IMG/VR virus record: IMGVR_UViG_2690316066_000016
Coordinates: 1-13,194 of that record
Source: a virus
Taxonomy: Duplodnaviria > Heunggongvirae > Uroviricota > Caudoviricetes
DNA: 13,194 nucleotides
Strand: one strand, 5' to 3'
Positions 1 through 13,194 of the stretch are shown piece after piece (the first letter of the stretch is position 1; each line of letters begins with the position of its first letter). A program made the position numbers and the translations under genes. Under the pieces are notes generated by a model, which searched no databases, was not told the origin of the DNA, and saw only the letters and a list, made by a program, of their open reading frames with translations.

Positions 1-1
1 C

Positions 2-691
2 GCTGAGCTTACCGCTGAGCTTAACATGCGTAAAAAACAATACAACTACTATCGCGACCAGTTATTTAGTTTTGGTGCCCACGATGTTAAACGTCTGAAA
101 TTAGGAGAGCTATGTGTAATTGGAGACGGTTTGCATGGTACTCCAGAATATGACGCCAACGGTGATTATTTCTTTATCAATGGAAACAATTTAGGCTATC
201 AAAAAATATCATTTAACGATAACACAAAAAAGGTTAATGATTCTATGTTTAAAAAACACGGAATTCATTTTGACCCAATAAATACTGTTTTCCTGTCAAT
301 TAATGGCACAATTGGAAATGTTTCCTTTTACAATAATGAGAAGATCGTACTCGGTAAGTCTGTGGCCTATTTTAAAATTAAATCACCTGAACTCCACACT
401 AGATATCTTTTCTATTTCCTGCAGACCAATTACGCAAAACAGTATTTTGAAAATCAAAAAACAGGTTCAACTATTAAAAACTTAGGTTTAAAATCGTTGA
501 GAGCATTTGAAATACCTATCCCATCATACGATGAACAACTTTATATCGTCGCCACGATGGATAAATTTTACAACCTGACAAACTCCATCACCGAAGGTCT
601 CCCGCGTGAAATCGAGTTGCGCCAGAAACAATACGAATACTACCGTGATTTACTGTTCAGTTTCCCGAAACCTGAAACTGTCAGTAATTAA
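2..691 (+). CDS. hsdS: Type I restriction-modification specificity subunit HsdS, 5'-truncated by the window edge (C-terminal target-recognition domain plus conserved tail)
   Basis: Frame opens at the window edge with [22 protein letters not shown] (central conserved region) and ends ...[20 protein letters not shown], the duplicated conserved motif typical of HsdS. The ATG at 26 is internal, not the true start. hsdR follows on the same strand. Confidence 0.8.
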
Positions 692-813
692 TTGACCATT
701 GCTACCGATCGGGCCACCTTAACACCCGGTCAGTATATAGACTATTTTTTTACGCGCCGGAAGTCACTCTTAACGCCCTTCCGGCTCTTGCCAGGCGGCA
801 CAAAGGATGCGCT

Positions 814-3800
814 ATGACTCATCAAACACACACCATTGCTGAATCCAATAACTTTATCGTCCTTGATAAGTACATCAAAGCTGAGCAAACAAGCGACAGC
901 TACCAGAGCGAATCGGACCTGGAACGTGAACTGATTCAGGACCTGCGGAATCAGGGTTATGAATTTATTTCGGTAAAATCACAGTCAGCGATGCAGGCCA
1001 ACGTTCGGGAACAGCTTCAGAGCCTCAATGGTGTGGTGTTTAATGACAGCGAGTGGCGGCGTTTCACGGAGCAGTATCTGGATAACCCGAGCGATGGCAT
1101 TCTGGATAAGACCCGTAAAATCCATATCGACTATATTTGCGACTTTATTTTTGATGACGAGCGTCTTGAGAACATCTATTTGATAGATAAAAAGAATCTC
1201 ATGCGCAATAAGGTGCAGATTATCCAGCAGTTTGAGCAGGCGGGTTCTCATGCTAACCGTTATGACGTCACGATCCTGGTTAATGGCTTACCACTGGTAC
1301 AAATCGAACTGAAAAAGCGCGGCGTGGCGATTCGTGAGGCTTTCAACCAGATACATCGTTACAGTAAAGAGAGTTTTAACAGCGAAAATTCCCTGTTTAA
1401 GTATCTGCAACTGTTTGTCATTTCTAACGGCACCGATACCCGTTACTTTGCCAACACCACAAAGCGCGATAAAAACAGTTTTGACTTCACCATGAACTGG
1501 GCGAAATCAGACAACACGCTGATTAAAGACCTCAAAGATTTTACCGCTACCTTTTTCCAGAAACATACTCTGCTTAATGTTCTGGTGAACTACAGCGTGT
1601 TCGATATTAGCCAGACGCTACTGGTGATGCGACCGTACCAGATTGCCGCTACCGAACGGATCTTATGGAAAATCAACAGTTCCTATAAAGCGAAAAACTG
1701 GTCTAACCCCGAAAGCGGTGGCTTTATCTGGCACACTACCGGTTCCGGTAAAACACTGACCAGCTTTAAAGCCGCGCGCCTGGCAACAGAACTGGACTTT
1801 ATTGATAAAGTCTTCTTTGTGGTCGACAGGAAAGACCTCGATTACCAGACGATGAAGGAATATCAGCGTTTTTCCCCAGACAGCGTCAACGGCTCGGAAA
1901 ATACCGCAGGCCTTAAACGAAATCTGGATAAGGACGATAACAAAATTATCGTCACCACTATTCAGAAACTTAATAACCTGATGAAAGCAGAAAGCGACCT
2001 GCCTGTATACAATCAGCAAGTGGTGTTTATATTTGATGAATGTCACCGCAGCCAGTTTGGAGAAGCGCAGAAAAATCTGAAGAAGAAATTCAAACGCTAT
2101 TATCAGTTTGGTTTTACCGGCACACCTATTTTCCCGGAAAACGCTTTAGGCTCAGAAACGACCGCCAGCGTATTTGGTCGTGAATTGCATTCATATGTGA
2201 TTACCGATGCGATTCGTGATGAAAAAGTGCTCAAATTCAAGGTGGACTATAACGATGTGCGGCCCCAGTTTAAATCTTTAGAGACAGAAACCGACGAGAA
2301 AAAACTGAGTGCGGCTGAAAATCAGCAGGCGTTTCTTCATCCCATGCGTATACAGGAAATTACGCAATATATTCTGAATAACTTCCGCCAGAAGACCCAC
2401 CGTACTTTCCCAGGTTCCAAAGGCTTTAATGCCATGCTGGCAGTGAGTAGCGTGGATGCCGCGAAAGCCTATTACGCGACGTTTAAACGGTTACAAGAGG
2501 AAGCAGCTAATAAATCGGCTACCTATAAACCGCTGCGTGTTGCGACAATCTTCTCCTTTGCCGCCAATGAAGAACAAAATGCCATTGGTGAAATTTCCGA
2601 TGAAACTTTTGATACCAGCGCAATGGACAGCAGTGCTAAAGAGTTTCTTGACGCTGCAATTCGTGAGTATAACAGCTATTTTAAAACTAACTTCAGCACC
2701 GACAGTAACGGTTTTCAGAACTACTATCGTGATTTAGCCCAACGGGTTAAAAATCAGGATATCGATCTGTTAATTGTCGTTGGGATGTTTTTAACCGGCT
2801 TCGACGCTCCAACATTGAACACGCTATTCGTCGATAAAAACTTGCGTTTTCACGGCCTGATGCAGGCATTCTCCCGCACCAACCGCATTTATAACGCCAC
2901 TAAAACCTTCGGTAACATCGTCACTTTCCGGGATCTGGAACGCTCAACCATTGATGCCATAACGCTGTTTGGTGATAAAAATACCAAAAATGTAGTGTTA
3001 GAAAAGAGTTATGCAGAGTATATGGAAGGCTTTACTGATGCTGCCACTGGTGAAGCTAAACGCGGCTTTATGGCAGTAGTTTCAGAACTGGAACAACGGT
3101 TCCCTGACCCTGCCAGTATTGAAAGTGAAAAAGAGAAGAAAGACTTCGTTAAACTGTTTGGTGAATACCTGCGTGCCGAGAACATCCTGCAAAACTATGA
3201 TGAATTTGCCACGCTGAAAGCCCTGCAACAAATCGATCTTAGCGATCCTGTTGCGGTAGAAAAATTCAAAGAAGAACATTATGTGGATGATGAAAAGTTC
3301 GCTGAATTACAAACGATTCGTCTCCCTGCTGAACGCAAGATTCAGGATTATCGTTCTGCCTATAACGATATTCGTGACTGGCAGCGCCGCGAGAAAGAGG
3401 CTGGCAAAAAAGAAAAGTTAACTACTGACTGGGATGACGTGGTTTTTGAAATCGATTTGCTGAAGTCTCAGGAAATAAACCTGGATTATATCCTTGGACT
3501 GATTTTCGAACACAACAGACAAAACAAAGGTAAGGGCGAAATGACCGAAGAGGTCAAGCGCTTAATTCGTTCGAGCCTTGGGAACCGTGCCAAAGAAGGT
3601 CTGGTGGTCGATTTTATTCAACAAACAAACCTGGATGATTTGCCGGATAAAGCCAGCATCATTGACGCGTTTTTTACCTTTGCTCAACGCGAACAGCAAC
3701 GTGAAGCAGAAGCATTGATCAAAGAAGAAAATCTCAATGAAGAGGCGGCGAAACGCTATATTCGCACGTCTTTAAAACGCGAATACGCCACCGAAAATGG

Positions 3801-3930
3801 CACGGAATTAAACGAGACATTGCCAAAACTCAGTCCGTTAAATCCGCAATATAAGACGAAAAAACAGACGGTTTTCCAGAAGATCGTCGCGTTTATTGAG
3901 AAGTTTAAAGGTGTAGGCGGGCAGATATAA
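814..3930 (+). CDS. hsdR: Type I restriction enzyme R subunit HsdR (1038 aa), EcoR124I-like (type IC) by length and context
   Basis: N-terminal PD-(D/E)xK-like nuclease region ([19 protein letters not shown]), helicase motif I HTTGSGKT, motif [12 protein letters not shown] (DExH). AAGGA sits 6 nt upstream of the ATG. The 1038-aa length matches my memory of EcoR124I HsdR (not verified here). Confidence 0.9.
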
Positions 3931-3944
3931 TGTATTAATCCGAA

Positions 3945-3974
3945 CCTGATCTGGCAGATAGCTGTCAGATCAGG
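3945..3974. repeat. Imperfect 13-bp-stem inverted repeat immediately downstream of hsdR (CCTGATCTGGCAG-ATAG-CTGTCAGATCAGG)
   Basis: Read directly from the sequence; one mismatch in the stem and no T-tract after it, so it is not a canonical intrinsic terminator. Possibly an mRNA 3' stabiliser or protein-binding site. Confidence 0.4.
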
Positions 3975-4114
3975 ACTGAGCTAATACAAATTAATATCGA
4001 ACCGAAAATACCAACGCCTGTACCAACATTTTTCGTTTGCGATGGGTTGGAATTGGTTAGCCCTGAGAGAGTTAAAATAGCGAGAAAGATAGGTAACTAA
4101 CGGATTTCAGACAC

Positions 4115-4137
4115 AAAAAAAGCCGCTCTTGAGCGGC
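4115..4137 (-). terminator. Rho-independent terminator on the minus strand, downstream of the tRNA-Leu 3' fragment
   Basis: Plus strand AAAAAAA-GCCGCTC-TT-GAGCGGC; on the minus strand this is a GC hairpin followed by a T7 run, 17 nt after the tRNA-like CCA end. Confidence 0.6.
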
Positions 4138-4154
4138 TCGATTTGCATACGATG

Positions 4155-4185
4155 TGGTGCCGAAGGCCGGACTCGAACCGGCACG
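4155..4185 (-). other. 31-nt 3'-terminal fragment of a tRNA-Leu gene (T-arm, acceptor 3' strand, CCA); putative att core of an integrated element
   Basis: Minus strand reads CGTGCCGGTTCGAGTCCGGCCTTCGGCACCA, matching from memory the 3' end of E. coli tRNA-Leu (leuX-type). Upstream sequence has no matching 5' acceptor strand (no GCCGAAG...), so this is not an intact tRNA. An integrase gene starts 134 nt away. Confidence 0.6.
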
Positions 4186-4318
4186 GGTTATAGCGACTTA
4201 GCTTGCTTCAACAATCATCGTTAACTTGTTGAACTAGTTAGACTAAAGCTCATGACCCCGGCACATTTCACAGACTGTTTAGCCATGAAAAAGCCCCGAC
4301 AACATAACCGGGGTTTGT

Positions 4319-5527
4319 ATGAGTTTCAAGAGAGATCGTTATCTAGTTTTAGATCCCTGCGGGAATTACCTCGTGCGGATAGCTATCCCCAACTACATGC
4401 GCCACCTGTTCCAAGGGAAGCGCTACTTTATGAAAAGCACAGGGACACGCGATGTACGCCAAGCGCGATTGTTTCGGGATGCTATTGCTCTGGAATGGAC
4501 TCGCTTACGGAATCTGCTAAAGCCGCAAGGCGGCTCGTCTGTAGATCAAATCATTGATGAGCTACGCCGTGTCAGTGTGTACGCCAAGGAAGCCCCCACA
4601 TCATTTGGTGCATCAGTTCAGTCTTGCCCTTCCCTACTTAAAATGCGCGATCTGTATCTTCTCCAATACAGCGAGAAGAGAAAGCTAACGACGCTATCCA
4701 AGACCAACAAAGCCGTAGAGATGCTGTTAACCCACCTGAAAAAGAAAGATGTTCAGTTGCGGGATATAAACCGAACCATAGTTACAGGCTGGTTAGATAA
4801 GCTCAAAACTGAGCGAGCGCCCCAAACTATCCAAAACTATATAAGCGCACTGGCACAGATATGGGACCTGGCACGCAATCGCTATCACGATGCGCCACAA
4901 GACAATCCTTGGCGCGGTCATGCGCTCGAAGCAAAAAGCAGCAAGGTCAGCTATGAAGTCTTCGCACCGGGTGAGCTGGCAAAGGTCTATGCTTTGCTTG
5001 ATGACGAGATGAAAGCGGTAACGGCTATTGGTGCATACAGCGGTATGCGGATCAATGAAATATGTACCCTACGTGAAAGCAGTATTAAAACTATCGAGGG
5101 AGTTTTGTGCTTTGAGATCACCGAGGGGAAGACCAAGAGCGCGGCGCGAATCGTCCCAGTACACAGCAAGCTAATCCCCCTCGTGAAATCATTGCTCAAA
5201 ACCACACATAGCGGTTTTCTGTTCTATCACGCATCAATTACAGACCGGGCCGATGGGAAGCGCTCAACGTGGCATACGCAGCAATTCACGCGAGCAAAGC
5301 GTAAAGCTCTTGGCGAGCTTGCCGCAGAGAGAAAAGTGTTTCACTCACTCCGCCATGCTTTTGTGCAACAGCTCGACCGCGCTCAAGTGCAAGAGGATAG
5401 AATCGCGCTACTGGTAGGCCATGAGCGTGGAAGTACAGAAAGTTTCAAAACCTATTCACGAAATAGCGCCTCAACGATTGAACTTAAAAAATACGTCGAA
5501 TTGTTGTCATATAAAGACATCAGGTAG
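4319..5527 (+). CDS. Tyrosine-type site-specific integrase (phage/island integrase)
   Basis: C-terminal catalytic signature: Arg in GMRINEICTLR, HxxR box HSLRHAF, LVGHE, and a Tyr in KTYSRNS about 35 aa after HxxR. Lies next to the tRNA-Leu att-like fragment. The start is uncertain; downstream Met codons are possible. Confidence 0.85.
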   Translation: MSFKRDRYLVLDPCGNYLVRIAIPNYMRHLFQGKRYFMKSTGTRDVRQARLFRDAIALEWTRLRNLLKPQGGSSVDQIIDELRRVSVYAKEAPTSFGASVQSCPSLLKMRDLYLLQYSEKRKLTTLSKTNKAVEMLLTHLKKKDVQLRDINRTIVTGWLDKLKTERAPQTIQNYISALAQIWDLARNRYHDAPQDNPWRGHALEAKSSKVSYEVFAPGELAKVYALLDDEMKAVTAIGAYSGMRINEICTLRESSIKTIEGVLCFEITEGKTKSAARIVPVHSKLIPLVKSLLKTTHSGFLFYHASITDRADGKRSTWHTQQFTRAKRKALGELAAERKVFHSLRHAFVQQLDRAQVQEDRIALLVGHERGSTESFKTYSRNSASTIELKKYVELLSYKDIR

Positions 5528-5578
5528 ATAAAAAACACTTGCGAAATGGATTAATTTTTCACTTAAATTATTTGAGCA

Positions 5579-5605
5579 GGCTGCGCTATTAATTCAAGCG
5601 CAGCC
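5579..5605. terminator. Perfect 9-bp-stem hairpin (GGCTGCGCT-N9-AGCGCAGCC) between the convergent integrase and TIR genes; candidate bidirectional terminator
   Basis: Inverted repeat read from the sequence, located in the 83-bp gap between two convergent stop codons (5527 and 5611). Flanks are not strongly T-rich, so terminator function is inferred from position only. Confidence 0.35.
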
Positions 5606-5610
5606 AATCG

Positions 5611-6225
5611 TTACCATAGTCTAGGTTTAGCTCGGATAGCAGGAACTGTATCTGCATTTCTTTTAACAGCAGGATTCATAATTGCTCGCTTATTAAATGC
5701 TTCATCAATATATGTTTCGCAATCAGCAATAAAATCGGAATACCTTACCACTGCACAATACACTTCCTCATCGGTGTAATGCGGAACTGTTTTTTGAAGA
5801 CGATGATTACCTTGTACCAGATAAGGAAGATATAGTGTATAACCAGTAGAAATCTGCCTTAAACTCACTCCGCAGTTACATCGAAAGTCAGAACATACAG
5901 CATCGGTAAAAACTTCATTCCAGATTTCATCTCTGACGACACCTATCAATCCCGCTGGATTTTCACCCCATAGAGATGCTTGAATTTCTGAGTTCACAAA
6001 TGGACGTTGGGCGGTCTCTCTCCCGATAAGCACAACAGTAACTGTAGTATCAGCGAGATATTCCTCGCGTATCTTACGCATGATGTATTCTTCACTTACA
6101 TCAGTACTAATGTCACCGTCGCTTACGGATTTATCGATAAAAGATTCCCCACCATACGTCTCTATTATACTATCTTTTAAATCCTGTTCATTAGCATGAT
6201 GATAACTTAGAAATGTTTTATGCAT
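5611..6225 (-). CDS. TIR-like domain protein, ThsB-like (DUF1863-type); likely start at the Met codon 6225-6223, with an alternative in-frame ATG at 6237
   Basis: N-terminus KTFLSYHHANEQDL and core TVTVVLIGRETAQRPFVNSEIQASLWGENPAGLIGVV follow the ThsB/TIR-like pattern as I remember it (F-[ILF]-S-[YF]-H...D, then VLIG..T..R.[WF]V..EI with the conserved Glu). GGAG sits 6 nt upstream of the 6225 ATG. Its start overlaps the upstream gene's stop as TAATG. Confidence 0.7.
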   Translation of the reverse strand: MHKTFLSYHHANEQDLKDSIIETYGGESFIDKSVSDGDISTDVSEEYIMRKIREEYLADTTVTVVLIGRETAQRPFVNSEIQASLWGENPAGLIGVVRDEIWNEVFTDAVCSDFRCNCGVSLRQISTGYTLYLPYLVQGNHRLQKTVPHYTDEEVYCAVVRYSDFIADCETYIDEAFNKRAIMNPAVKRNADTVPAIRAKPRLW

Positions 6226-6962
6226 TAGTTGCTCCATTTATCCATGTCAATACTAAACTGGCTGGCAACACTATCTTGAAAGAATTTATTCAGCTCAGTG
6301 AAATCATTAACAAGTTTATTAAAATGATAATAGTAAGTCTGAATTTTACCGATTGGTGTCAGATGATACCTAAGAACAATTGCTTCACCATCAGGTTTCT
6401 CGTCAATTTTAACTTCATCTTTATCTGAGACGTATTTATGCCAGCGCCTATAATTATTTTGGTGCTCAGTCAGAAATGCATTTAGTTTTTTGAGCATAGT
6501 ATTCGCCAACATATATAACTCAAGATCTTTTTTCCTTTTAATATTCAGAACTCGCATCTCAACACGAATAAACTGATAGACCTCGTAGTAAGAATTAAAT
6601 ACCTCATCAAAAGCATCCTGCTGAACGTTTATTTTAAAAAGCGTCCTTTTCGTGTCGAGAAAATTCTGTATAGACTTTATGAAAAGGGCATCAGAGTTAT
6701 CAAAAAGAATATTTAAACCGCCAAAATTAAGCCGTTCAACTTTAAACGAATATTTTCTATTCATCATGCCATCTAATAGAAAGATAGCCACAATGATTAA
6801 TACAACTACAGAAAGTAGAGAACTAAGTACCCCAATATTTTGAAGTAAACGCTTACCGAAGGTTATATCTTCCGACGTTGGTAACTGAACAGTTCCCAAG
6901 AGCGCAATAACAACTATGCAAACAGACCCCCACACAACCCATCTCTTGTACATAAGCATCAT
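6225..6962 (-). CDS. Membrane protein with two N-terminal TM helices and a roughly 180-aa cytoplasmic domain of unknown family; candidate effector/partner of the TIR protein
   Basis: Hydrophobic stretches WVVWGSVCIVVIALLGTV and NIGVLSSLLSVVVLIIVAIFLL, with positive residues before TM1 and after TM2 (N-in/C-in). No family motif recognised in the C-terminal domain. Start ambiguous among three ATGs (6962, 6959, 6953); AGGA is best spaced for the 6953 ATG. Very AT-rich. Confidence 0.6.
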   Translation of the reverse strand: MMLMYKRWVVWGSVCIVVIALLGTVQLPTSEDITFGKRLLQNIGVLSSLLSVVVLIIVAIFLLDGMMNRKYSFKVERLNFGGLNILFDNSDALFIKSIQNFLDTKRTLFKINVQQDAFDEVFNSYYEVYQFIRVEMRVLNIKRKKDLELYMLANTMLKKLNAFLTEHQNNYRRWHKYVSDKDEVKIDEKPDGEAIVLRYHLTPIGKIQTYYYHFNKLVNDFTELNKFFQDSVASQFSIDMDKWSN

Positions 6963-6981
6963 CCTAAAACGCAGTTTAAAA

Positions 6982-7010
6982 ACTATACAACGATGTTTTT
7001 AAGAGTGGAA
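6982..7010 (-). promoter_or_regulatory. Candidate sigma70 promoter for the 2-TM/TIR operon (-35 TTCCAC, 17-nt spacer, -10 TATAGT on the minus strand)
   Basis: Hexamers read by eye on the minus strand upstream of the operon start; the -35 is weak (3 of 6 matches). Not experimentally supported. Confidence 0.3.
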
Positions 7011-7035
7011 GTCCTAGTTATCAGACACATTCTGC

Positions 7036-7066
7036 TTAGCCTACGCATCTCTATTGTGTAGGCTAA
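7036..7066. repeat. Perfect 9-bp inverted repeat (TTAGCCTAC-N13-GTAGGCTAA) between the phage genes and the TIR/TM operon
   Basis: Read from the sequence. Lies 20 nt downstream of the endonuclease VII-like gene stop and just upstream of the candidate promoter: either a terminator hairpin for the phage gene or an operator. Confidence 0.4.
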
Positions 7067-7086
7067 TGCAATGAACTTAAGCCCAG

Positions 7087-7533
7087 CTAAGTAAGTTGCT
7101 CAGTTTTATGGGGATAGATAACTCCTATCCCCTTGTACTGGCGTCGGTAACTTACCAACATTACGCTCATACTGTCGTGGGCCAGTCCACATAAACTTCC
7201 TGCATAATAGCCTCCCTCGGCAGCGTTAGCAGATCGATGCACCACAGCACGCACGCGCCCGGTTCGGTGGCAGTGATCCAGCACGGCAGACCCAAGGCGC
7301 AGCGGCTTACCTGTCACTGCACAGCGTCGGTATTGATAATTCCACAAGAAGACACGGACAGTAGCCACATCAGCGCGACGCAGCTCCAGCCGTCCTGAAC
7401 CATTCAACAGGAAGTGATACACATCATCGAACGCAGCAGAATTTTTAATGCGTTCAGGCAACGGCGTATTGCCGAGATATTCCAGATATCCCCGCATCGC
7501 TTTTCTTAGTAGTTGGTCTGTCCGTGTAACCAT
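7087..7533 (-). CDS. Phage endonuclease VII-like (HNH-superfamily) protein, apparently degenerate in the zinc-ligand positions
   Basis: Motif CAVTGKPL...AVLDHCHRTGRVRAVVHRSANAAEG resembles the endonuclease VII signature (CxxC ... DHxHxTGxxRGxLCxxCN..G), but with CxxT and HxxA where the Cys pairs are expected. GGAG lies 10 nt upstream of the ATG. Confidence 0.5.
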   Translation of the reverse strand: MVTRTDQLLRKAMRGYLEYLGNTPLPERIKNSAAFDDVYHFLLNGSGRLELRRADVATVRVFLWNYQYRRCAVTGKPLRLGSAVLDHCHRTGRVRAVVHRSANAAEGGYYAGSLCGLAHDSMSVMLVSYRRQYKGIGVIYPHKTEQLT

Positions 7534-7805
7534 GATTCAAAGTCTCCACTGTCAGATGCAGCCCGTTTGCAGGCTTCGTATTCTTCGCGCTGGCGTTGGC
7601 ATACCAGAGCATAAAGCTCGACGGCCATCGCATTAACACGTTCGTCACTGATACCATTGCGGCGCATCAGCCCCAGCAGCTTACGAAATTTAGCTTCAAG
7701 CTCAGGCTCTCCGGTATCCATTACCCACTGTTTCAGGTCAGCGAGTGCGCCAGTCATTGGCGGCGGCTCGATGTACCGCCACCTTAATTTAATCGTGGTT
7801 ATCAT
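7506..7805 (-). CDS. Hypothetical phage protein (about 99 aa from the RBS-supported start; the ORF extends to 7853)
   Basis: Open frame with GAGAGGA 8 nt upstream of the ATG at 7805-7803, which overlaps the 3' end of the upstream gene (stop at 7789). No recognisable family. Confidence 0.45.
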   Translation of the reverse strand: MITTIKLRWRYIEPPPMTGALADLKQWVMDTGEPELEAKFRKLLGLMRRNGISDERVNAMAVELYALVCQRQREEYEACKRAASDSGDFESWLHGQTNY

Positions 7806-8214
7806 CTTCTTTATCCTCTCTGTAAGCCGGGTGCATTGCTCGGTATTGCTCAATGGTCAAACCCTCGCTGGCCGCTGCAAACCGTTCCTTTTGCTTACCC
7901 GCCAATCGCAAGGCGCTGTCTCTCCAGCAGAGCAGAAAGAAGATGGTCAGCACCTGTTTACTCAAGCCATCCAGAAGATCGCCAAGTCCTTGCTCAAGCA
8001 GACAGGCACGCCATGCAGCGGCGTGCTCAGTCATCGCACCTACTATCGGGACAGGTGCGCCGAGCATTGTCGCAAGCTGACTCATAACACTATTAGCATC
8101 GCCCGGATGCAGCCGGGGAATAGTCATGCGGCCAGCCTGCGCCAACAGCTCGTCGTACCGCTGGCGGCGTGGGTCATCACCTGCCAGCGACCTAATCGGC
8201 TTTTCATCAGCCAT
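7789..8214 (-). CDS. Hypothetical phage protein (141 aa)
   Basis: Open frame with a strong RBS (GGAGG 8 nt upstream of the ATG at 8214); co-directional and tightly packed with neighbouring phage genes; no family recognised. Confidence 0.5.
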   Translation of the reverse strand: MADEKPIRSLAGDDPRRQRYDELLAQAGRMTIPRLHPGDANSVMSQLATMLGAPVPIVGAMTEHAAAWRACLLEQGLGDLLDGLSKQVLTIFFLLCWRDSALRLAGKQKERFAAASEGLTIEQYRAMHPAYREDKEDDNHD

Positions 8215-8232
8215 TAATGGAACCTCCGAGGA

Positions 8233-8742
8233 TTAGGCAGCCTGCAATAAATCGGCTGGCGTTGAGGGATGGTATCTGGCTTTAGCTTTCAGGTACGCAA
8301 CACGCGCCGCAGCTTCGGTAGTGAATAAGCCAAGGTGATGACGTACACCATCAACACGAATATAAGCCTCCCATTTACTACTACCCTTATTCCAGCTATA
8401 CCCTCTTGCCCTGCGTCGATTCTGGTCGTTTTCCCGCTGCGTAACCAATCGCAGATTGCATAAGCGGTTGTCGTCACGGATACCGTTGATGTGATCGATC
8501 TGCATACCGTGGGGAATAGCACCATGCGCAAGAATCCACGCCACGCGATGGGCTTTTAGCTGGTACTGCTTGCCATCAAGTCGCAGGGCAACTTGACGAT
8601 AGCCATCAGCTCGACGGGTGGAGTCGGCATAGGTGCCAACCTTAACCCGGCGTCGGTTAGCTTTATGTTGCAGGCGGCCTGTCACCGGGTCATATAGGAA
8701 AAGGGAGAGCAGTAGCTCAGGGGCGTAAGCATCATTAACCAT
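8233..8742 (-). CDS. HNH homing endonuclease with a C-terminal AP2-like DNA-binding domain (phage-type)
   Basis: HRVAWILAHGAIPHGMQIDHINGIRDDNRLCNLRLVTQRENDQN is a classic phage HNH (HNH_3-type) motif; C-terminal SKWEAYIRVDGVRHHLGLFTTEAAARVAYLKA resembles an AP2 domain. Confidence 0.8.
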   Translation of the reverse strand: MVNDAYAPELLLSLFLYDPVTGRLQHKANRRRVKVGTYADSTRRADGYRQVALRLDGKQYQLKAHRVAWILAHGAIPHGMQIDHINGIRDDNRLCNLRLVTQRENDQNRRRARGYSWNKGSSKWEAYIRVDGVRHHLGLFTTEAAARVAYLKAKARYHPSTPADLLQAA

Positions 8743-8758
8743 GACTCAGCCCCTCCAG

Positions 8759-9754
8759 TTACACAGCTTGTCGGAAATTGATAACGCAGTCAGGACGACG
8801 CAGCCCAACGTTGAACAGGCGATATGAGTCCATCACCATTGTCATTTCGCGCTCATCATCCCACTGGCGATTAATGACGCTCTGCGCTTCGACCGTCAGC
8901 AGCACAGAGGAAGGTTTAAATAGCGTCGCCCTCGTCAGCGCTTCCTCTGCGGTAACATCATAATCAGCGCCCAGTTCATGCCCGGTGATGGCTTCCTGCG
9001 GGTAACTGTTGAGTTCAATGACTCGCACCCCAGCGACATAGCCAACGCGACGCCATGCGTAATCGTTGCCACTATCCCGGCTGTAACGGACGTTCATCAG
9101 CTTCTTATGCTCCATCAGGATGCTGAACCAAGCCGGGTCGATAAGCAGTACCAGCTCCGCCACCGGAATATCTTTCTCAGTCAGGAATCGATTAACAGCA
9201 GCTTTAATAGCGTGAACCAGCTCATTTGCTGCGTCCTCTTCACTACCCGTGGTCAGGTTGAGCGGGACAACGTTATCCGTAAGCGGGTTAAACGTTGGTT
9301 GCAGTGTCGGCGGTGGTACAAAGTCAGTCGCTTTGATTAGCTGGGTGGTGTGCGCTTCGTCGTAGAATTTAGCGTGAGCAGTACCCATATTGCGGCTCAG
9401 TTCTGCGCGAAAGGTGGGCGCTGTCCAGTCGTCCTGATAGTCAATCGGGACGCGGATATAGCTCAGCGTATCCACAGAGATAACCAACTTGTCCGACTTA
9501 ACGGCGGTAGGCTCCAGCGATTGCCCTGCGGTTCTGCCCTTCACCTCAAGATCACCACCTAGGCGATCAATGCGGTATTGGTTGCTGTTTTTCAGCGGCT
9601 TGTATGTGCTTAGCCCCTCTGCGAGAAAGACGCTCTTTGCCTCAAGGCGGGTCTGAACGTCCCGATCATACGCTTCAATGTGAATGTCGTTGTCAGCATC
9701 CACACCGCCCCAGTGCGGGCGGAATTGGTCAGGGGTATAAACATTGTCAGTCAT
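8759..9754 (-). CDS. Phage major capsid protein, T7 gp10-like (HK97 fold), putative
   Basis: Blocks KSDKLVISVDTLSYIRVPIDY, IKAAVNRFLTEKDIPVAELVLLIDPAWFSILME and RVGYVAGVRVIEL align by eye with T7 gp10 regions as I remember them (KVITIDGLL..., LTKNYVPAADRVFYCDPDSYSAILAA, NVMGFEVVEVPHL). GGAG lies 8 nt upstream of the ATG. Homology is from memory, not a search. Confidence 0.5.
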   Translation of the reverse strand: MTDNVYTPDQFRPHWGGVDADNDIHIEAYDRDVQTRLEAKSVFLAEGLSTYKPLKNSNQYRIDRLGGDLEVKGRTAGQSLEPTAVKSDKLVISVDTLSYIRVPIDYQDDWTAPTFRAELSRNMGTAHAKFYDEAHTTQLIKATDFVPPPTLQPTFNPLTDNVVPLNLTTGSEEDAANELVHAIKAAVNRFLTEKDIPVAELVLLIDPAWFSILMEHKKLMNVRYSRDSGNDYAWRRVGYVAGVRVIELNSYPQEAITGHELGADYDVTAEEALTRATLFKPSSVLLTVEAQSVINRQWDDEREMTMVMDSYRLFNVGLRRPDCVINFRQAV

Positions 9755-9821
9755 AGAAATAGCTCCAGCGCCAGCAGTAGCCAGCGTGATTTATGAAAAG
9801 AGAAAGAGAGAATGGGAGGAA

Positions 9822-10169
9822 TCAGGCAGCAGCTTTTTCAGCAGCCACCTCAAGAATCAGGCCGATAAGCGCGAAAGCGGGCCATTGGGGATTAAGCTCG
9901 TGCAGGTGCGCAACGCCTCCACCAAAAGCATCGCGCATGTCAGCACCAGAGATGCCAGAGCGTTTGGCCGCCCGCCGCAGCAATCGCAGCTCAGAGCTGG
10001 GAACATACGCCGAGGGCATACGCACGCCAAAGCGTGAGGCGAGCCGCCGCCAGTGAGTTTCATCAGCAAAGTCTTGTTTAAGCTGGCTGGCGTTGGCTTT
10101 CCAGTGTTCAATCTTTGCTCTACGGGCAGCCCTAGCCGCTGCCACGTTTTCAGGTGTCAGTAAGGTCAT
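9822..10169 (-). CDS. Hypothetical phage protein (115 aa)
   Basis: Open frame co-oriented with the phage module and preceded by a 160-bp intergenic gap; weak RBS; no family recognised. Confidence 0.4.
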   Translation of the reverse strand: MTLLTPENVAAARAARRAKIEHWKANASQLKQDFADETHWRRLASRFGVRMPSAYVPSSELRLLRRAAKRSGISGADMRDAFGGGVAHLHELNPQWPAFALIGLILEVAAEKAAA

Positions 10170-10329
10170 TGTCAGATCTCAATGCAAAATGGGTTTATGT
10201 GTGGTGTTTGAGAGGTAATTTCGCGTTTTACAGGCGCAGGTATACGAATGCACATCTGGCGATGTACAACGCGATTCAGGCTCTAAAACATAAGGTTAAG
10301 ACGTGGGGAAGACAGGACAGGGCAATTGC

Positions 10330-11409
10330 TTAGCGGCCAGCGCGCTTGCCAGCGGAGCGCTGCGCAACCAGATCGCGGTATTGTTCGTCGTACTGGCGAT
10401 GACCGGGGCCATACCCCGATTGCAGCGCCCACTGCGAAAGCTGGTCATACGCTGCAATAAATTCAGCATGAGACATCCCGACAGGTTGCGCGGTAGGCTG
10501 GCCATGCTGGGCATAACCAGTTTGTGAACCGCCAGCCATACGCTCTTGCAGATACTGAACCGCCCGCTGCATCTGAGCAGGGTCGCCAGACATAACCATC
10601 CGCTCAAGGGTAGATTGCGTCCCGGCATCGAGCGTGCCAGCATATTGCAACATCGCGTCAACTGTACCCTGCCCTAACTGACTTTCTATGGACTGTTGAA
10701 ACTGCCCCATTAACCCTTGCAGCTCGGCGGTATACTCGACAGCCGTCCAGCCATCTTTCATGGTGCGGATCTCTTTTTTACCCGCGTTGACCATTGGCTC
10801 GATGGTGAACGTCATCCCAGGTTTCAGTACGACGTTGGTTTCACGGGAGTCATAGTGCAGCACCTGCGGTTCTTCATGGAAGCCGCGACCAATACCGTGT
10901 CCACAATATTCACGAACGACGGAGAAGCCTTCTGCTTCGACAAACTTCTGAATCGCCGCACCGATTTCGCGCAGGTTAATGCCTGGTTTGACCATGCGCA
11001 GCGCCAGGTACAGGCTTTCTTGCGTGATGCGGCACAGACGTTCGCCCATGATGGTCGGCTTACCGACGATAAACATTTTCGAGGTATCGCCGTGGAAACC
11101 ATCTTTGATTACGGTGACATCAATGTTAACGATATCGCCATCTTTCAGCAGCTTCGCATCGTCCGGGATACCGTGGCACACCACTTCATTAATAGAGATG
11201 CAAACGGATTTCGGATAGCCGTGATAGCCGAGGCAGGCAGAAACCGCGTGTTGTTCATTAACAATGTAATCATTACAGATGCGATCCAGCTCGCCGGTGC
11301 TGACGCCCGGTTTAACATACGGTTCGATCATCTCCAGCACTTCGGCAGCCAGTCGGCCAGCGACGCGCATTTTTTCGATATCTTCTGGGGTCTTGATTGA
11401 GATAGCCAT
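10330..11409 (-). CDS. map: Chimeric ORF: methionine aminopeptidase Map residues 1-222 fused in frame to 137 aa of unrelated (phage-like) sequence; native Map C-terminus (42 aa) missing
   Basis: Translation matches E. coli Map from MAISIKTPEDIEKMRVAG... through ...KKEIRTMKDGWT, then diverges to AVEYTAELQGLMGQFQQ... Nucleotide homology to map stops at about 10743. Position divergent from rpsB matches the known map-rpsB arrangement. Confidence 0.85.
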   Translation of the reverse strand: MAISIKTPEDIEKMRVAGRLAAEVLEMIEPYVKPGVSTGELDRICNDYIVNEQHAVSACLGYHGYPKSVCISINEVVCHGIPDDAKLLKDGDIVNIDVTVIKDGFHGDTSKMFIVGKPTIMGERLCRITQESLYLALRMVKPGINLREIGAAIQKFVEAEGFSVVREYCGHGIGRGFHEEPQVLHYDSRETNVVLKPGMTFTIEPMVNAGKKEIRTMKDGWTAVEYTAELQGLMGQFQQSIESQLGQGTVDAMLQYAGTLDAGTQSTLERMVMSGDPAQMQRAVQYLQERMAGGSQTGYAQHGQPTAQPVGMSHAEFIAAYDQLSQWALQSGYGPGHRQYDEQYRDLVAQRSAGKRAGR

Positions 11410-11554
11410 TAATTCTGTCCATCAGCGTCGGTGATACCGACAATATATATGTAAGTGCCGTCAATGGTATCACACCCGGGCAAATTGAGAATCATTCTGA
11501 ATTTCGCCAAACGTGCCACTGAACGTTTTCTATAATAGAAAATTCAACGTCTGA

Positions 11555-12502
<948 letters not shown>

Positions 12503-12676
12503 TAAGGCTTGATAACTCCCCCAAAATAGTTCGAGTTGCAGAAAGGCGGCAAGCTCGAGAATTCCCGGGAGCTTACATCAGTAAGTGACCGGGATGAGCG
12601 AGCGAAGATAACGCATCTGCGGCGCGAAATATGAAGGGGGAGAGCCCTTATAGACCAGGTAGTACACGTTTGGTTA

Positions 12677-12702
12677 GGGGGCCTGCATATGGCCCCCTTT
12701 TT
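12677..12702 (+). terminator. rpsB-tsf intergenic hairpin with T-tract (GGGGGCC-TGCATAT-GGCCCCC-TTTTT); attenuator or partial terminator
   Basis: Perfect 7-bp GC stem followed by five T residues, between rpsB and tsf as expected for the rpsB-tsf operon. Confidence 0.6.
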
Positions 12703-12759
12703 CACTTTTATATCTGTGCGGTTTAATGCCGGGCAGATCACATCTCCGAGGATTTTAGA

Positions 12760-13137
12760 ATGGCTGAAATTACCGCATCCCTGGTAAAAGAGCTGCGTGA
12801 GCGTACTGGCGCAGGCATGATGGATTGCAAAAAAGCACTGACTGAAGCTAACGGCGACATCGAGCTGGCAATCGAAAACATGCGTAAGTCCGGTGCTATT
12901 AAAGCAGCGAAAAAAGCAGGCAACGTTGCTGCTGACGGCGTGATCAAAACCAAAATCGACAGCAACTACGGCATCATTCTGGAAGTTAACTGCCAGACTG
13001 ACTTCGTTGCAAAAGACGCTGGTTTCCAGGCGTTCGCAGACAAAGTTCTGGACGCAGCTGTTGCTGGCAAAATCACTGACGTTGAAGTTCTGAAAGCACA
13101 GTTCGAAGAAGAACGTGTTGCGCTAAACACAGCCTGA
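12760..13137 (+). pseudogene. tsf: Elongation factor Ts, truncated: only the N-terminal ~122 codons are tsf-like, then three unrelated codons and a stop
   Basis: Translation [43 protein letters not shown]...[11 protein letters not shown] matches E. coli EF-Ts (283 aa), then reads NTA-stop. Nucleotide homology ends at about 13124; the remaining roughly 70 nt are of unknown origin. Confidence 0.85.
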
Positions 13138-13194
13138 ATAAACGGACTGTAGCTGTCGATATCAGCCACCATCACGATGATGTCGCGCGGAGTA

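What the first reader, a model, noticed from the sequence alone, without database searches (positions are those of the whole stretch)
7087..10742. Compact phage remnant with a T7 gp10-like capsid gene, two HNH-superfamily nucleases and a 5'-truncated first gene
Six co-oriented, tightly packed GC-rich genes (several with overlapping stop and start) include a putative HK97-fold capsid protein and an HNH-AP2 endonuclease. The upstream-most gene survives only as its C-terminal 137 codons, fused to map. A lone capsid gene next to an integrase and defence cargo resembles degraded prophages or capsid-encoding satellite-like elements, but I cannot tell which.
Basis: partly seen in the sequence, partly recalled or inferred. 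Interest (0 to 1): 0.4.

Follow-up and report, generated by a model that had tools for sequence, protein, structure and literature searches.

The report
Capsid-carrying leuX island, likely phage satellite
The six genes are not a decaying prophage but half of a conserved 15-kb mobile island of enterobacteria that carries its own T7-family capsid and scaffold genes, most likely a so far undescribed phage satellite; its truncation against map is probably an assembly artefact.

Summary
Window 7087-10742 has six intact, co-oriented, GC-rich minus-strand genes: an endonuclease VII-like protein, orf99, orf141, an HNH_3 nuclease, a 331-aa capsid protein and orf115b. Next come the last 137 codons of a scaffolding gene, fused in frame to map.

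The interpretation needs revising. The block is the integrase-proximal half of a 14.5-15.2 kb element inserted in tRNA-Leu(CAA) leuX, with a 31-bp att repeat at window 4155-4185. The same gene order occurs in 59 of 5,426 complete E. coli genomes and in Enterobacter, Kosakonia, Kluyvera and Trabulsiella. It persists in lineages only 35-63% identical.

All window genes have dN/dS of 0.06-0.30. Element capsids form one clade next to Autographivirales capsids (57% identity to phage Lidtsur). No copy has portal, terminase, tail or RNA polymerase genes. A slot beside the integrase holds changing defence cargo: TIR, AbiTii or a restriction-modification pair.

My best reading is a phage satellite of T7-family phages that builds its own shell. 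This is inferred; no helper phage is known.

The map fusion sits in a three-piece chimeric draft contig that also truncates essential tsf against recC. It is absent from all the other genomes searched.

The parts
4155..4185 (-). 31-bp att core, the 3' end of tRNA-Leu(CAA) leuX; left boundary of the element
   Evidence: An exact copy of TGGTGCCGAAGGCCGGACTCGAACCGGCACG flanks the element in complete copies, 15,061 bp apart in E2348/69. The tRNA is Leu(CAA). In genomes without the element, window 1-4185 runs straight into the tRNA (H58-H61).
4319..5527 (+). Tyrosine integrase (DUF6538 plus Phage_integrase domains)
   Evidence: Pfam and PHROG matches. It sits next to att in every copy. dN/dS 0.08-0.11.
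5611..6237 (-). Cargo: ThsB-like TIR protein
   Evidence: Pfam ThsB_TIR E 1.3e-14; PADLOC ThsB models. It occupies the variable slot between the endoVII-like gene and the integrase.
6225..6962 (-). Cargo: 242-245-aa protein with hydrophobic N-terminal segments, partner of the TIR gene; function unknown
   Evidence: No family match. Found together with the TIR gene in L001 and L102. Low GC.
7087..7533 (-). Endonuclease VII-like protein, a core gene
   Evidence: Pfam PF02945 27.4 bits (cutoff 23.6); PHROG 423 E 1.9e-15. It is 38-58% identical to endonuclease VII genes of Autographivirales contigs. Two of four putative zinc ligands are replaced in all element copies. dN/dS 0.16-0.21.
7506..7805 (-). 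orf99, a core gene of unknown function
   Evidence: Conserved in all copies, including L004 and L006 at 38-40% identity. No family hit. dN/dS 0.15-0.30.
7789..8214 (-). orf141, a conserved gene of unknown function; predicted all-helical
   Evidence: Homologues were found only in Enterobacteriaceae; no match in the divergent L004. AF2 model pLDDT 76, with no fold match in BFVD. dN/dS 0.12-0.24.
8233..8742 (-). HNH_3 homing-type endonuclease, accessory
   Evidence: Pfam HNH_3 E 2.8e-19; PHROG 99 E 5e-56. AP2 is sub-threshold only. It is absent from this position in L004 and L006 and lies elsewhere in L004. Homologues are scattered in Autographivirales contigs.
8759..9754 (-). Major capsid protein (HK97 fold, Autographivirales type)
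   Evidence: PHROG 267 E 1.9e-69. Full-length match to solved capsid proteins, including Shigella phage Buco gp37. 57% identity to the Lidtsur capsid. Monophyletic with other element capsids. dN/dS 0.06-0.13.
9822..10169 (-). orf115b (PHROG 21723), an alternative occupant of a second variable slot; function unknown
   Evidence: PHROG 21723 E 5.5e-50. Few homologues, nearly all in this element family. Replaced by a 137-aa HTH protein in E2348/69 and others. AF2 pLDDT 81, helical; it resembles only uncharacterised phage proteins.
10330..10742 (-). C-terminal 137 codons of the element's scaffolding-like gene (full length 226-232 aa elsewhere)
   Evidence: PHROG 1018 E 5.7e-7. Profile-profile match of element scaffolds to the C-terminal ~100 aa of phage scaffolding proteins: probability 97.5%, E 8.6e-12. 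dN/dS 0.10-0.11.
10743..11409 (-). Not part of the element: the first 222 codons of E. coli map, joined in frame to the scaffold fragment (contig junction 1)
   Evidence: 100% identical to E. coli map-rpsB-tsf from 10743 to 13124. Junction alignment. No other genome searched has the junction.

Best explanation
**What it is (shown).** Window 4155-10742 is the integrase-proximal ~6.6 kb of a conserved ~15-kb integrative element of Enterobacteriaceae. It inserts into the 3' end of tRNA-Leu(CAA) leuX using its own tyrosine integrase. Complete copies read, in order:
- att, then integrase
- a variable defence-cargo slot
- endonuclease VII-like gene, orf99, orf141
- (HNH)
- capsid
- orf115b or an HTH protein
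- a short scaffolding protein
- six small genes, several with HTH motifs
- a RecQ-like SF2 helicase
- a ~1.3-kb gene-poor stretch
- a serine recombinase plus variable genes, then the tRNA

The capsid, the C-terminal domain of the scaffold and the endonuclease VII-like gene derive from T7-order (Autographivirales) phages. The element has no portal, terminase, tail, internal-core or RNA polymerase genes.

**How it most likely works (inferred).** It is a phage satellite.
1. A T7-order phage infects the cell, and the element excises and replicates.
2. It expresses its own capsid and a shortened scaffold. The scaffold keeps the capsid-binding C-terminus but has a different N-terminal half.
3. These proteins assemble a shell on the helper's portal.
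4. The helper's terminase fills the shell with element DNA, and the helper's tail is attached.

At one third of the 42-45 kb helper-type genome, the element fits either a smaller shell or three copies per full-size head. Diverting assembly would also lower helper yield. The cargo slot adds unrelated anti-phage genes.

**The window copy.** The truncation against map is most likely an assembly or library chimera, not biology.
For: **Family and boundaries**
- A 31-bp att repeat flanks the element, with the integrase beside it.
- The order is the same in E2348/69, LT883142, an IMG/VR contig, three Logan contigs and eight species representatives from five genera.
- The order is kept in E. hormaechei L004 at 35-63% protein identity and in L006.
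- 59 of 5,426 complete E. coli genomes carry it. All copies are single and chromosomal.

**Selection**
- dN/dS is 0.06-0.30 for all six genes, the scaffold fragment and the integrase. All ORFs are intact.
- In an NJ tree of 96 capsids, the 17 element capsids form one clade with three deep branches.

**Phage origin of only some parts**
- In all 79 phage contigs the capsid is flanked by some combination of portal, scaffold, tail tubular A/B and RNA polymerase genes.
- No element locus has any of these.
- The scaffold's C-terminal ~100 aa is homologous to phage scaffolds.
- The endoVII-like protein is 38-58% identical to phage copies.

**Satellite hallmarks**
- att-to-att sizes are 15,061, 14,713, 14,627, 15,158 and 14,837 bp; three further copies on Logan contigs are about 14.5, 14.8 and 15.2 kb. 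This holds despite different cargo. Phage relatives are 41-45 kb.
- Uniform compact size is stated to be typical of classical satellites (PMC12772148).
- The slot beside the integrase holds TIR plus partner, AbiTii, a REase plus C5-methylase pair, or nothing.
- A satellite-encoded capsid homologue that redirects assembly has a precedent in SaPIbov5 Ccm (PMC8569155).

**Chimera**
- The window is the whole 13,194-bp draft contig CDRY01000009.1.
- It joins leuX-island, map-rpsB-tsf and recC segments at points with at most ~2 nt of homology.
Against: - No helper phage, excised or packaged form, or transfer has been shown. Everything about mobilisation is inferred.
- The nearest phage capsids are only 57% identical, so the true helper is not among sequenced phages.
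- No similarity to phage DNA exists outside the capsid gene, so no pac or terminal-repeat mimic was found.
- No terminase small subunit or packaging-redirection gene was identified. The 69-aa ORF gives only sub-threshold hints: Pfam DNA_Packaging_2 E 3e-4, below cutoff; tblastn to Lidtsur TerS E 0.04; no match in the phage collection.
- No AlpA, Pri-Rep or repressor of known satellite type was found.
- The helicase also matches a PADLOC 'DpdF' model very strongly, so it could be defence rather than replication.
- The endoVII-like protein lacks two putative zinc ligands.
- orf99, orf141 and orf115b remain without function.
- The NJ tree has no support values.
- The chimera verdict rests on gene essentiality and absence elsewhere, not on read data.
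Confidence: 0.55

Rival explanations
1. Assembly-interference defence island. The element is an integrase-borne island whose capsid and shortened scaffold are expressed to co-assemble with, and poison, the proheads of infecting T7-order phages. The element itself is never packaged.
For: - The capsid and the scaffold C-terminus are homologous to the phage proteins they would have to interact with.
- The scaffold N-terminal half is unrelated to the phage one.
- The island carries other defence genes.
- No packaging gene or pac site was found.
Against: - Poisoning would not explain the tightly conserved total size of 14.5-15.2 kb despite changing cargo.
- It would not explain the co-conserved helicase, endoVII-like gene and regulators.
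- It would not explain ≥93% identical capsids across five genera, which points to efficient horizontal transfer.
- Known satellites also interfere with their helper, so interference does not exclude packaging.
Confidence: 0.2
2. Cryptic, decaying prophage remnant. These would be leftovers of an integrated T7-like phage with no present function.
For: - Several genes derive from Autographivirales phages.
- The window copy lacks the first part of the scaffold gene.
Against: - The same gene set and order occur in every copy and in lineages down to 35-63% identity.
- dN/dS is 0.06-0.30 with intact ORFs.
- The capsids are monophyletic and the size is uniform.
- Most element genes have no counterpart in the phages.
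- The truncation is a contig chimera, not decay.
Confidence: 0.05
3. An integrative island that moves by other means, such as generalised transduction, conjugative mobilisation or transformation. The capsid and scaffold would serve a non-viral role, for instance a protein compartment.
For: - No helper or packaging signal was identified.
- HK97-fold shells are used as encapsulins in bacteria (my own knowledge).
Against: - The capsid aligns over its full length with bona fide phage capsids at 57% identity and with solved virion capsid proteins.
- A phage-type scaffold C-terminal domain lies upstream of it, as in phages.
- No relaxase, oriT-type gene or encapsulin cargo was seen in the family scans.
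Confidence: 0.08
4. The map::scaffold fusion is a real chromosomal rearrangement in the source strain, not an artefact.
For: - The fusion is in frame.
- The contig is deposited in a public assembly.
Against: - The fusion cuts map at residue 222 of 264, removing the C-terminal part of the M24 domain. By my own knowledge this includes the metal ligand E235.
- The same contig cuts tsf at about codon 122 and joins it to recC. Both genes are essential in E. coli (my own knowledge).
- Three loci from distant map positions are joined with at most ~2 nt of homology.
- The junction is absent from 5,426 complete E. coli genomes, GTDB species representatives and JGI metagenome contigs.
Confidence: 0.15

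Closest known systems
Capsid-forming PICIs (cf-PICIs) of Enterobacteriaceae and other bacteria
   Same: Both are integrase-borne islands of about 15 kb that encode their own HK97-fold capsid protein instead of remodelling the helper's. Both have a uniform compact size and spread across genera.
   Different: cf-PICIs encode a complete head and packaging set: portal, protease, head-tail connectors, TerS, TerL and HNH. They steal only tails (bioRxiv 10.1101/2022.09.08.507074; PMC13612085). This element has only a capsid and a short scaffold, so it would also need the helper's portal and terminase. No AlpA or Pri-Rep was found. Its capsid is of T7-order type.
SaPIbov5-type cos SaPIs (Ccm capsid homologue)
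   Same: In both, a satellite carries a homologue of the helper's major capsid protein, and that homologue changes the shell that is built (PMC8569155). Both rely on the helper for portal, terminase and tail.
   Different: SaPIbov5 is a Gram-positive element with a siphovirus helper. There is no sequence relationship. Ccm works together with the helper capsid protein, whereas here a matching scaffold is also supplied. The mechanism is not tested here.
P4-like satellites of Enterobacterales
   Same: Both use the same integration target (leuX tRNA-Leu; my own knowledge for P4). Both are about one third of the helper genome in size. Both have a hotspot of variable anti-phage cargo next to conserved genes (PMC8628076; PMC11464382 for PARIS in such hotspots).
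   Different: No Sid, Psu, Delta, alpha primase or cos homologues were detected in any scan. The integrase is of the DUF6538 type. P4 remodels the P2 capsid with an external scaffold and has no capsid gene. P4's helper is a temperate myovirus.
Autographivirales phages (Bonnellvirus Lidtsur, J8-65, Bucovirus Buco)
   Same: The capsid is 57% identical (40% to Buco). The scaffold-upstream-of-capsid order is shared. The scaffold C-terminal domain and the endonuclease VII-like gene are homologous.
   Different: The element lacks RNA polymerase, DNA polymerase, portal, tail tubular, internal virion, terminase and lysis genes. It is 15 kb rather than 41-45 kb, and it is integrated with a tyrosine integrase.
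PLE of Vibrio cholerae and PICMIs of Vibrionaceae
   Same: These are satellites of virulent phages, which is the likely situation here because known Autographivirales coliphages are virulent.
   Different: PLE uses the helper's coat with its own external scaffold TcaP (PMC10945586). PICMIs encode no capsid-remodelling genes and package concatemers in full-size heads (PMC10803314). There is no gene homology with either.

Membership tests
HK97-fold major capsid proteins of Autographivirales (PHROG 267) | Full-length sequence match to the family profile and to solved virion capsid proteins | tested here: met
   PHROG 267 E 1.9e-69 over residues 1-328. PDB 23sf_I E 3.6e-78 and 8eld (Buco gp37) E 5.9e-74 over residues 1-329. 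57% identity to the Lidtsur capsid.
T7 gp10 in the narrow sense | Clear sequence similarity to T7 gp10A itself | tested here: inconclusive
   No chain of gp10A's 345-aa length appears among the eight PDB hits at E ≤ 1. This indicates remote, collinear similarity only.
Complete or decaying Autographivirales prophage | Presence, or scattered remnants, of RNA polymerase, portal, tail tubular A/B and terminase large subunit genes | tested here: not met
   tblastn with the Lidtsur proteins finds portal, scaffold, tail tubular and RNA polymerase genes in all 79 phage contigs. It finds none of the five in any of the element loci. Pfam and PHROG scans of all E2348/69 element genes show no further structural gene.
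Phage scaffolding protein (PHROG 1018) | Homology to phage scaffolding proteins, with the gene located upstream of the capsid | tested here: met
   PHROG 1018 E 5.7e-7 for the window fragment. hhalign of element against phage scaffold alignments gives probability 97.5%, E 8.6e-12, restricted to the C-terminal ~100 aa. Full-length copies alone give no PHROG hit at E ≤ 0.01.
cf-PICI | Own portal, prohead protease, head-tail connectors, TerS and TerL in addition to the capsid | tested here: not met
   None was detected in any complete copy.
cf-PICI / classical PICI | Integrase plus AlpA-type regulator plus Pri-Rep replication module | tested here: not met
   The integrase is present. No AlpA or primase/Rep family hit was found. 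The only replication-type protein is a RecQ-like SF2 helicase with an unassigned 260-aa N-terminus.
P4-like satellite | Sid, Psu, Delta, alpha primase-helicase and a cos site | tested here: not met
   No Pfam or PHROG hit to any of these in window or E2348/69 element proteins. Only the integration site, leuX, is shared.
Phage satellite (generic) | Integrated element with att sites and its own integrase, lacking a full virion gene set | tested here: met
   See for att and the integrase, and for the missing virion genes.
Phage satellite (generic) | Compact, uniform size that is a fraction of the helper genome | tested here: met
   Eight copies measure 14.5-15.2 kb, against 41-45 kb for phages with related capsids. 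The criterion is as stated in PMC12772148.
Phage satellite (generic) | Helper-dependent induction, packaging and transfer | not testable with these tools
   This needs infection experiments or virion-DNA sequencing. No helper was identified.
Recombination endonuclease VII (PF02945) | Pfam match above the gathering score, with conserved His-Me finger and zinc ligands | tested here: inconclusive
   Score 27.4 against a cutoff of 23.6. DHxH and Asn are kept. All element copies have CxxT and S-A-N where phage homologues have CxxC and S-C-N.
HNH-AP2 homing endonuclease | HNH_3 domain plus AP2 DNA-binding domain | tested here: inconclusive
   HNH_3 E 2.8e-19. AP2 gives only E 0.17, 12.6 bits against a cutoff of 33.3. 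PHROG 99 covers residues 9-159.
Dpd (7-deazaguanine) defence system | DpdF helicase together with dpdA/B/C and other dpd genes | tested here: not met
   The helicase of complete copies (outside the window) hits PADLOC model PDLC02858 'DpdF' at E 1.9e-277. NCBIfam DpdF gives 124 bits against a cutoff of 550. No other dpd gene is in the element.

The most novel reading that the evidence does not exclude
These leuX islands would be the first described satellites of T7-order (Autographivirales) phages, which as far as known are virulent. They would represent an intermediate level of structural autonomy: supplying their own capsid and scaffold, perhaps to build a one-third-capacity shell, while taking portal, terminase, core and tail from the helper. 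They would also carry a swappable anti-phage cargo slot.
Probability: 0.4. Interest if true: 0.8.

Novelty: new variant of a known kind. Interest (0 to 1): 0.6.

Why it matters
Known satellites fall into three groups:
- those that remodel a stolen capsid (P4, SaPIs, PLE);
- those that build the whole head themselves (cf-PICIs);
- those that do neither (PICMIs).

An element carrying just a capsid and a matching short scaffold would fill the gap between the first two groups. It would also extend satellite parasitism to T7-family phages, which are workhorses of phage therapy and molecular biology.

About 1% of complete E. coli genomes carry it, including the reference EPEC strain E2348/69, as do several other enterobacterial genera. 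It could therefore affect the outcome of T7-like phage infection and spread defence genes between genera.

It is directly testable, because a complete copy sits in a widely held laboratory strain.

For genome scanning there are two practical lessons. A 'lone capsid gene' near an integrase can mark a conserved element rather than debris. A striking gene fusion can be a contig chimera.

Tried and rejected
1. **Siphovirus origin.** My first guess, from the phage names alone, was Dhillonvirus-type siphoviruses. The annotated records show Autographiviridae, genus Bonnellvirus.
2. **'13-bp microhomology' at the map junction.** This came from BLAST coordinates. Direct alignment shows only ~1-2 nt.
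3. **Source of the junction.** The exact 44-mer is absent from GTDB species genomes and JGI metagenomes. The exact-protein look-up showed that the window is the draft contig CDRY01000009.1.
4. **Phage RNA-polymerase promoters.** A repeat search of the Lidtsur genome gave no promoter-like family, so no motif was available to search for in the element. The sigma-70 and terminator scan of the block was at or below shuffle expectation.
5. **pac or terminal-repeat mimicry.** Sensitive blastn of three element copies against 80 phage loci matched only the capsid gene.
6. **TerS candidate (69-aa ORF of complete copies).** Only sub-threshold hints were found, with no tblastn match in 50,697 phage records.
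8. **Circular or excised forms.** The 14.5-15.2 kb Logan contigs simply break at the 31-bp att repeat, which I suspect equals the assembler's k-mer length. They are not evidence of excision.
9. **Rfam.** Only the backbone sRNAs t44 and CssrA were found.
10. **Literature.** Six full-text searches, including RefSeq protein accessions of the E2348/69 copy, found no description of this family.

Full report
**1. Observation**

The window has six intact minus-strand genes between 7087 and 10169, followed by a 359-aa ORF at 10330-11409. The public contig's own gene calls agree.
- **7087-7533, 148 aa.** Passes Pfam Endonuclease_7 (27.4 bits, cutoff 23.6) and PHROG 423.
- **8233-8742, 169 aa.** HNH_3, E 2.8e-19. 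Its AP2 domain is only sub-threshold, E 0.17.
- **8759-9754, 331 aa.** PHROG 267 'major head protein', E 1.9e-69. It aligns over its full length with solved capsid proteins (E 3.6e-78; Shigella phage Buco gp37, E 5.9e-74).
- **10330-11409, 359 aa.** Peptidase_M24 (map) over residues 12-212 and PHROG 1018 'head scaffolding protein' over residues 238-358.

Gene overlaps are 28 and 17 nt, and gaps are 16-160 nt. GC is 51-57%, against 33-42% in the neighbouring cargo. The description is therefore accurate. The truncated gene is a scaffolding gene.

**2. The window is a chimeric draft contig**

The fusion protein is on record once. It lies on contig CDRY01000009.1 of assembly GCA_001373235.1, which is 13,194 bp long, so that contig is the window. 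The contig has three segments:
- **1-10742:** matches the leuX region of other E. coli.
- **10743-13124:** 100% identical to map-rpsB-tsf of many E. coli.
- **The last ~75 bases:** recC.

Direct alignments place the joins at 10742/10743 and 13124/13125, with at most 1-2 nt of shared sequence.

The first join removes the last ~42 residues of map. The second removes more than half of tsf. Both genes are essential in E. coli by established knowledge.

None of 5,426 complete E. coli genomes has the first junction. The exact 44-mer across it is also absent from the GTDB species genomes and from JGI metagenome contigs. I judge the fusion an assembly or library artefact, with roughly 0.8 confidence. 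Read data would settle it.

**3. What the block belongs to**

*Boundaries.* Window 4155-4185 is the last 31 nt of tRNA-Leu. In genomes that lack the element, hsdR runs straight into that tRNA. In E2348/69 the same 31-mer occurs twice, 15,061 bp apart, and the distal copy is the 3' end of an intact tRNA-Leu(CAA).

*Gene order.* The E2348/69 copy and the LT883142 copy read, from att to the tRNA:
- integrase
- cargo
- endoVII-like gene, orf99, orf141
- HNH
- capsid
- orf115b or a 137-aa HTH protein
- a 226-231-aa scaffold-like protein
- six small ORFs
- a 614-aa DEAD/RecQ-like helicase
- about 1.3 kb with few genes
- a serine recombinase and variable genes

*Distribution.* The same order is found in one IMG/VR contig, three Logan contigs and eight species representatives. 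These come from Enterobacter, Kosakonia, Kluyvera and Trabulsiella, with capsids 93-96% identical to the window's.

*Divergent lineages.* Two divergent lineages were found.
- E. hormaechei L004 keeps the order with proteins only 35-63% identical to the window-type ones.
- L006, a 4.6-kb partial contig, keeps the order of the integrase-proximal genes at 33-59% identity.
- Both have no HNH beside the capsid and no cargo.

*Frequency.* 59 of 5,426 complete E. coli genomes carry the block, always once and on the chromosome.

**4. Not a decaying prophage**

- **Selection.** Window genes compared with two to four other copies give dN/dS of 0.06-0.30 for endoVII-like, orf99, orf141, HNH, capsid, orf115b and integrase. 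The scaffold fragment gives 0.10-0.11. All ORFs are intact.
- **Monophyly.** In an NJ tree of 96 distinct capsid sequences, the 17 element capsids form one clade with three deep branches (59-61% identity between branches). No phage sequence falls inside it. The tree has no support values.
- **Missing phage genes.** tblastn with Lidtsur portal, scaffold, tail tubular A/B, RNA polymerase and terminase finds portal, scaffold, tail tubular and polymerase genes around the capsid in all 79 phage contigs. It finds none in any element locus. Element genes other than capsid, endoVII-like and HNH are found in no phage contig.
- **No further structural genes.** Pfam and PHROG scans of every E2348/69 element gene show none.

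A single old acquisition followed by conservation fits these facts. Independent decay does not.

**5. Which phages the parts come from**

- The nearest phage DNA and protein matches are Autographiviridae of genus Bonnellvirus (Lidtsur, J8-65 and relatives). In these the order is portal, scaffold, capsid, tail tubular A and B.
- Capsid identity is 57% to Lidtsur and 40-42% to Bucovirus-type phages.
'T7 gp10-like' is correct at the level of the order, not the genus.
- An alignment of element scaffolds matches an alignment of 68 phage scaffolds with probability 97.5% and E 8.6e-12. The match covers only the C-terminal ~100 residues. The element protein is about half the phage length (226-232 against 282-411 aa) and has an unrelated Q/N/G-rich N-terminal half.
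- By analogy with other phages, where the scaffold C-terminus binds the coat protein (established knowledge for P22 and others), the element keeps the coat-binding end and has changed the rest.
- The window retains exactly this conserved C-terminal domain.
- The endoVII-like protein is 38-58% identical to endonuclease VII genes of other Autographivirales contigs. All element copies replace two of the four putative zinc ligands, add about 45 N-terminal residues and lack the basic tail.
- The HNH gene is mobile within the family. It is present, absent or elsewhere in different copies, which is typical of a homing endonuclease.

**6. Satellite-like properties**

- **Size.** att-to-att lengths are 15,061, 14,713, 14,627, 15,158 and 14,837 bp. 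Three Logan contigs give about 14.5, 14.8 and 15.2 kb. LT883142 is 16.4 kb and includes an IS3 insertion. That is one third of the 41-45 kb genomes of phages with related capsids. Uniform compact size is cited as typical of classical satellites (PMC12772148).
- **Cargo slot.** The slot between the endoVII-like gene and the integrase holds different contents in different copies:
  - a ThsB-like TIR protein plus a partner (window, L001, L102);
  - AbiTii, Pfam E 4.3e-44 (E2348/69);
  - an NmeDI-like nuclease plus a C5 methylase (L088, L089);
  - nothing (L004, L006, L092).
  This resembles the hotspots of P4-like satellites and PICIs.
- **Cross-genus spread.** Near-identical capsids occur across five genera.
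- **Precedent.** A capsid homologue inside a satellite that redirects assembly is known from SaPIbov5 Ccm (PMC8569155). cf-PICIs build whole heads (bioRxiv 10.1101/2022.09.08.507074).

**7. Proposed mechanism and its status**

*Shown:*
- element boundaries, integrase and integration site;
- conserved gene set and purifying selection;
- phage origin of the capsid, the scaffold C-terminus and the endoVII-like gene;
- absence of other virion genes;
- the size constraint and the cargo slot.

*Inferred:*
- infection by a T7-order phage triggers excision and replication;
- the element's capsid and short scaffold assemble on the helper's portal;
- the helper's terminase packages element DNA, either as a monomer in a smaller shell or as three copies in a full-size head;
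- the helper's tail completes the particle, and helper yield drops.

*Not found:*
- a helper phage;
- a packaging signal;
- a convincing small terminase;
- a known satellite regulator or Pri-Rep;
- phage-type promoters.

orf99, orf141 and orf115b stay unassigned. The AF2 models are helical, with pLDDT 76 and 81, and give no informative fold match.

The helicase of complete copies matches a PADLOC 'DpdF' model at E 1.9e-277. It fails the NCBIfam DpdF and RecQ cutoffs and has no dpd neighbours.

**8. Rivals**

- **Pure assembly-interference island** (confidence ~0.2). It uses the same parts but does not explain the size constraint or the cross-genus spread.
- **Cryptic prophage remnant** (~0.05). 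Contradicted by section 4.
- **Non-viral shell or another transfer route** (~0.08). No support beyond the missing helper.

**9. Comparison and novelty**

The element fails the defining gene sets of the known families:
- cf-PICIs: no portal, protease, connectors or terminases;
- classical PICIs: no AlpA or Pri-Rep;
- P4-like satellites: no Sid, Psu, Delta, alpha or cos;
- complete Autographivirales phages.

It works most like a cross between SaPIbov5 (own capsid homologue) and cf-PICIs (own shell). Its likely helper type has no described satellite.

Six full-text searches, including RefSeq accessions of the E2348/69 proteins, found no description of it. A December 2025 overview of satellite families lists nothing like it (PMC12772148). 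The library does not cover all journals, so prior description cannot be excluded.

I rate it a new variant of a known kind, phage satellites. Interest is 0.6. It is a coherent, testable candidate present in a standard laboratory strain, but every step of mobilisation is still inference, and the window copy itself is cut by an artefact.

Noticed in passing
window 13116-13194: The contig ends with ~75 bases of recC joined to tsf at 13124/13125, truncating tsf at about codon 122. This is a second non-homologous junction in the same 13-kb contig.
   Followed up: yes
window 1-4154: hsdS' and hsdR of a type I restriction system lie directly outside the att site. In several E. coli genomes this stretch is 100% identical and abuts an uninterrupted tRNA-Leu, giving the empty-site configuration.
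   Followed up: partly
window 5611-6962; L002 10955-11857; L088 11528-13679: The slot between the endoVII-like gene and the integrase holds different anti-phage cargo in different copies: ThsB-like TIR plus a 242-245-aa partner, AbiTii, or an NmeDI-like nuclease plus a C5 methylase. In some lineages it is empty. The TIR partner has no family match and may be a new effector.
   Followed up: partly
window 9755-10329; L002 14546-15317: A second variable slot lies between the scaffold and the capsid. It holds orf115b (PHROG 21723) in some copies and a 137-aa protein in others. That protein has a weak HTH_23 match and a weak 'late transcriptional activator' PHROG 836 match.
   Followed up: partly
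window 7087-7533 and homologues: All element endoVII-like proteins have CxxT and S-A-N where phage homologues have CxxC and S-C-N, so two putative zinc ligands are lost. They also carry an extra ~45-aa N-terminus and lack the basic C-tail, yet dN/dS is about 0.2. This may be a repurposed nuclease.
   Followed up: partly
L002 17901-19745 (outside the window): The element's 614-aa helicase matches one PADLOC 'DpdF' model at E 1.9e-277 although no other dpd gene is nearby. That PADLOC model may have been built from this element family. The 260-aa N-terminus has no family match.
   Followed up: partly
L002 17220-17429 (outside the window): A conserved 69-aa ORF gives sub-threshold similarity to T7 gp18-type small terminase: Pfam DNA_Packaging_2 E 3e-4, and tblastn to Lidtsur TerS E 0.04. 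It finds nothing in the phage collection.
   Followed up: yes
L002 20150-20310 and L101 2770-2880 (outside the window): GACAG-rich 20-23-nt direct repeats at 28-nt spacing, plus an exact 11-nt repeat, lie in the gene-poor ~1.3 kb upstream of the helicase. They could be iterons or operators. They are not seen in L102.
   Followed up: no
L001 24052-25172: The LT883142 copy carries an IS3-family (ISSen4) insertion in its tRNA-proximal region, making it 16.4 kb.
   Followed up: no
L101, L102, L088 ends: Logan contigs carrying the element start or end exactly in the 31-bp att core, presumably because the repeat equals the assembler's k-mer length. Contigs of element length are therefore not evidence of excised circles.
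   Followed up: yes
L092 12683-13900: The E. bugandensis copy has window-type core genes but an integrase only 38% identical, and no leuX att core. This suggests integrase-module exchange and a different insertion site.
   Followed up: no
window 11663-11749 and 12588-12697: Rfam finds the backbone sRNAs t44 (upstream of rpsB) and CssrA (between rpsB and tsf). These are ordinary E. coli features.
   Followed up: yes
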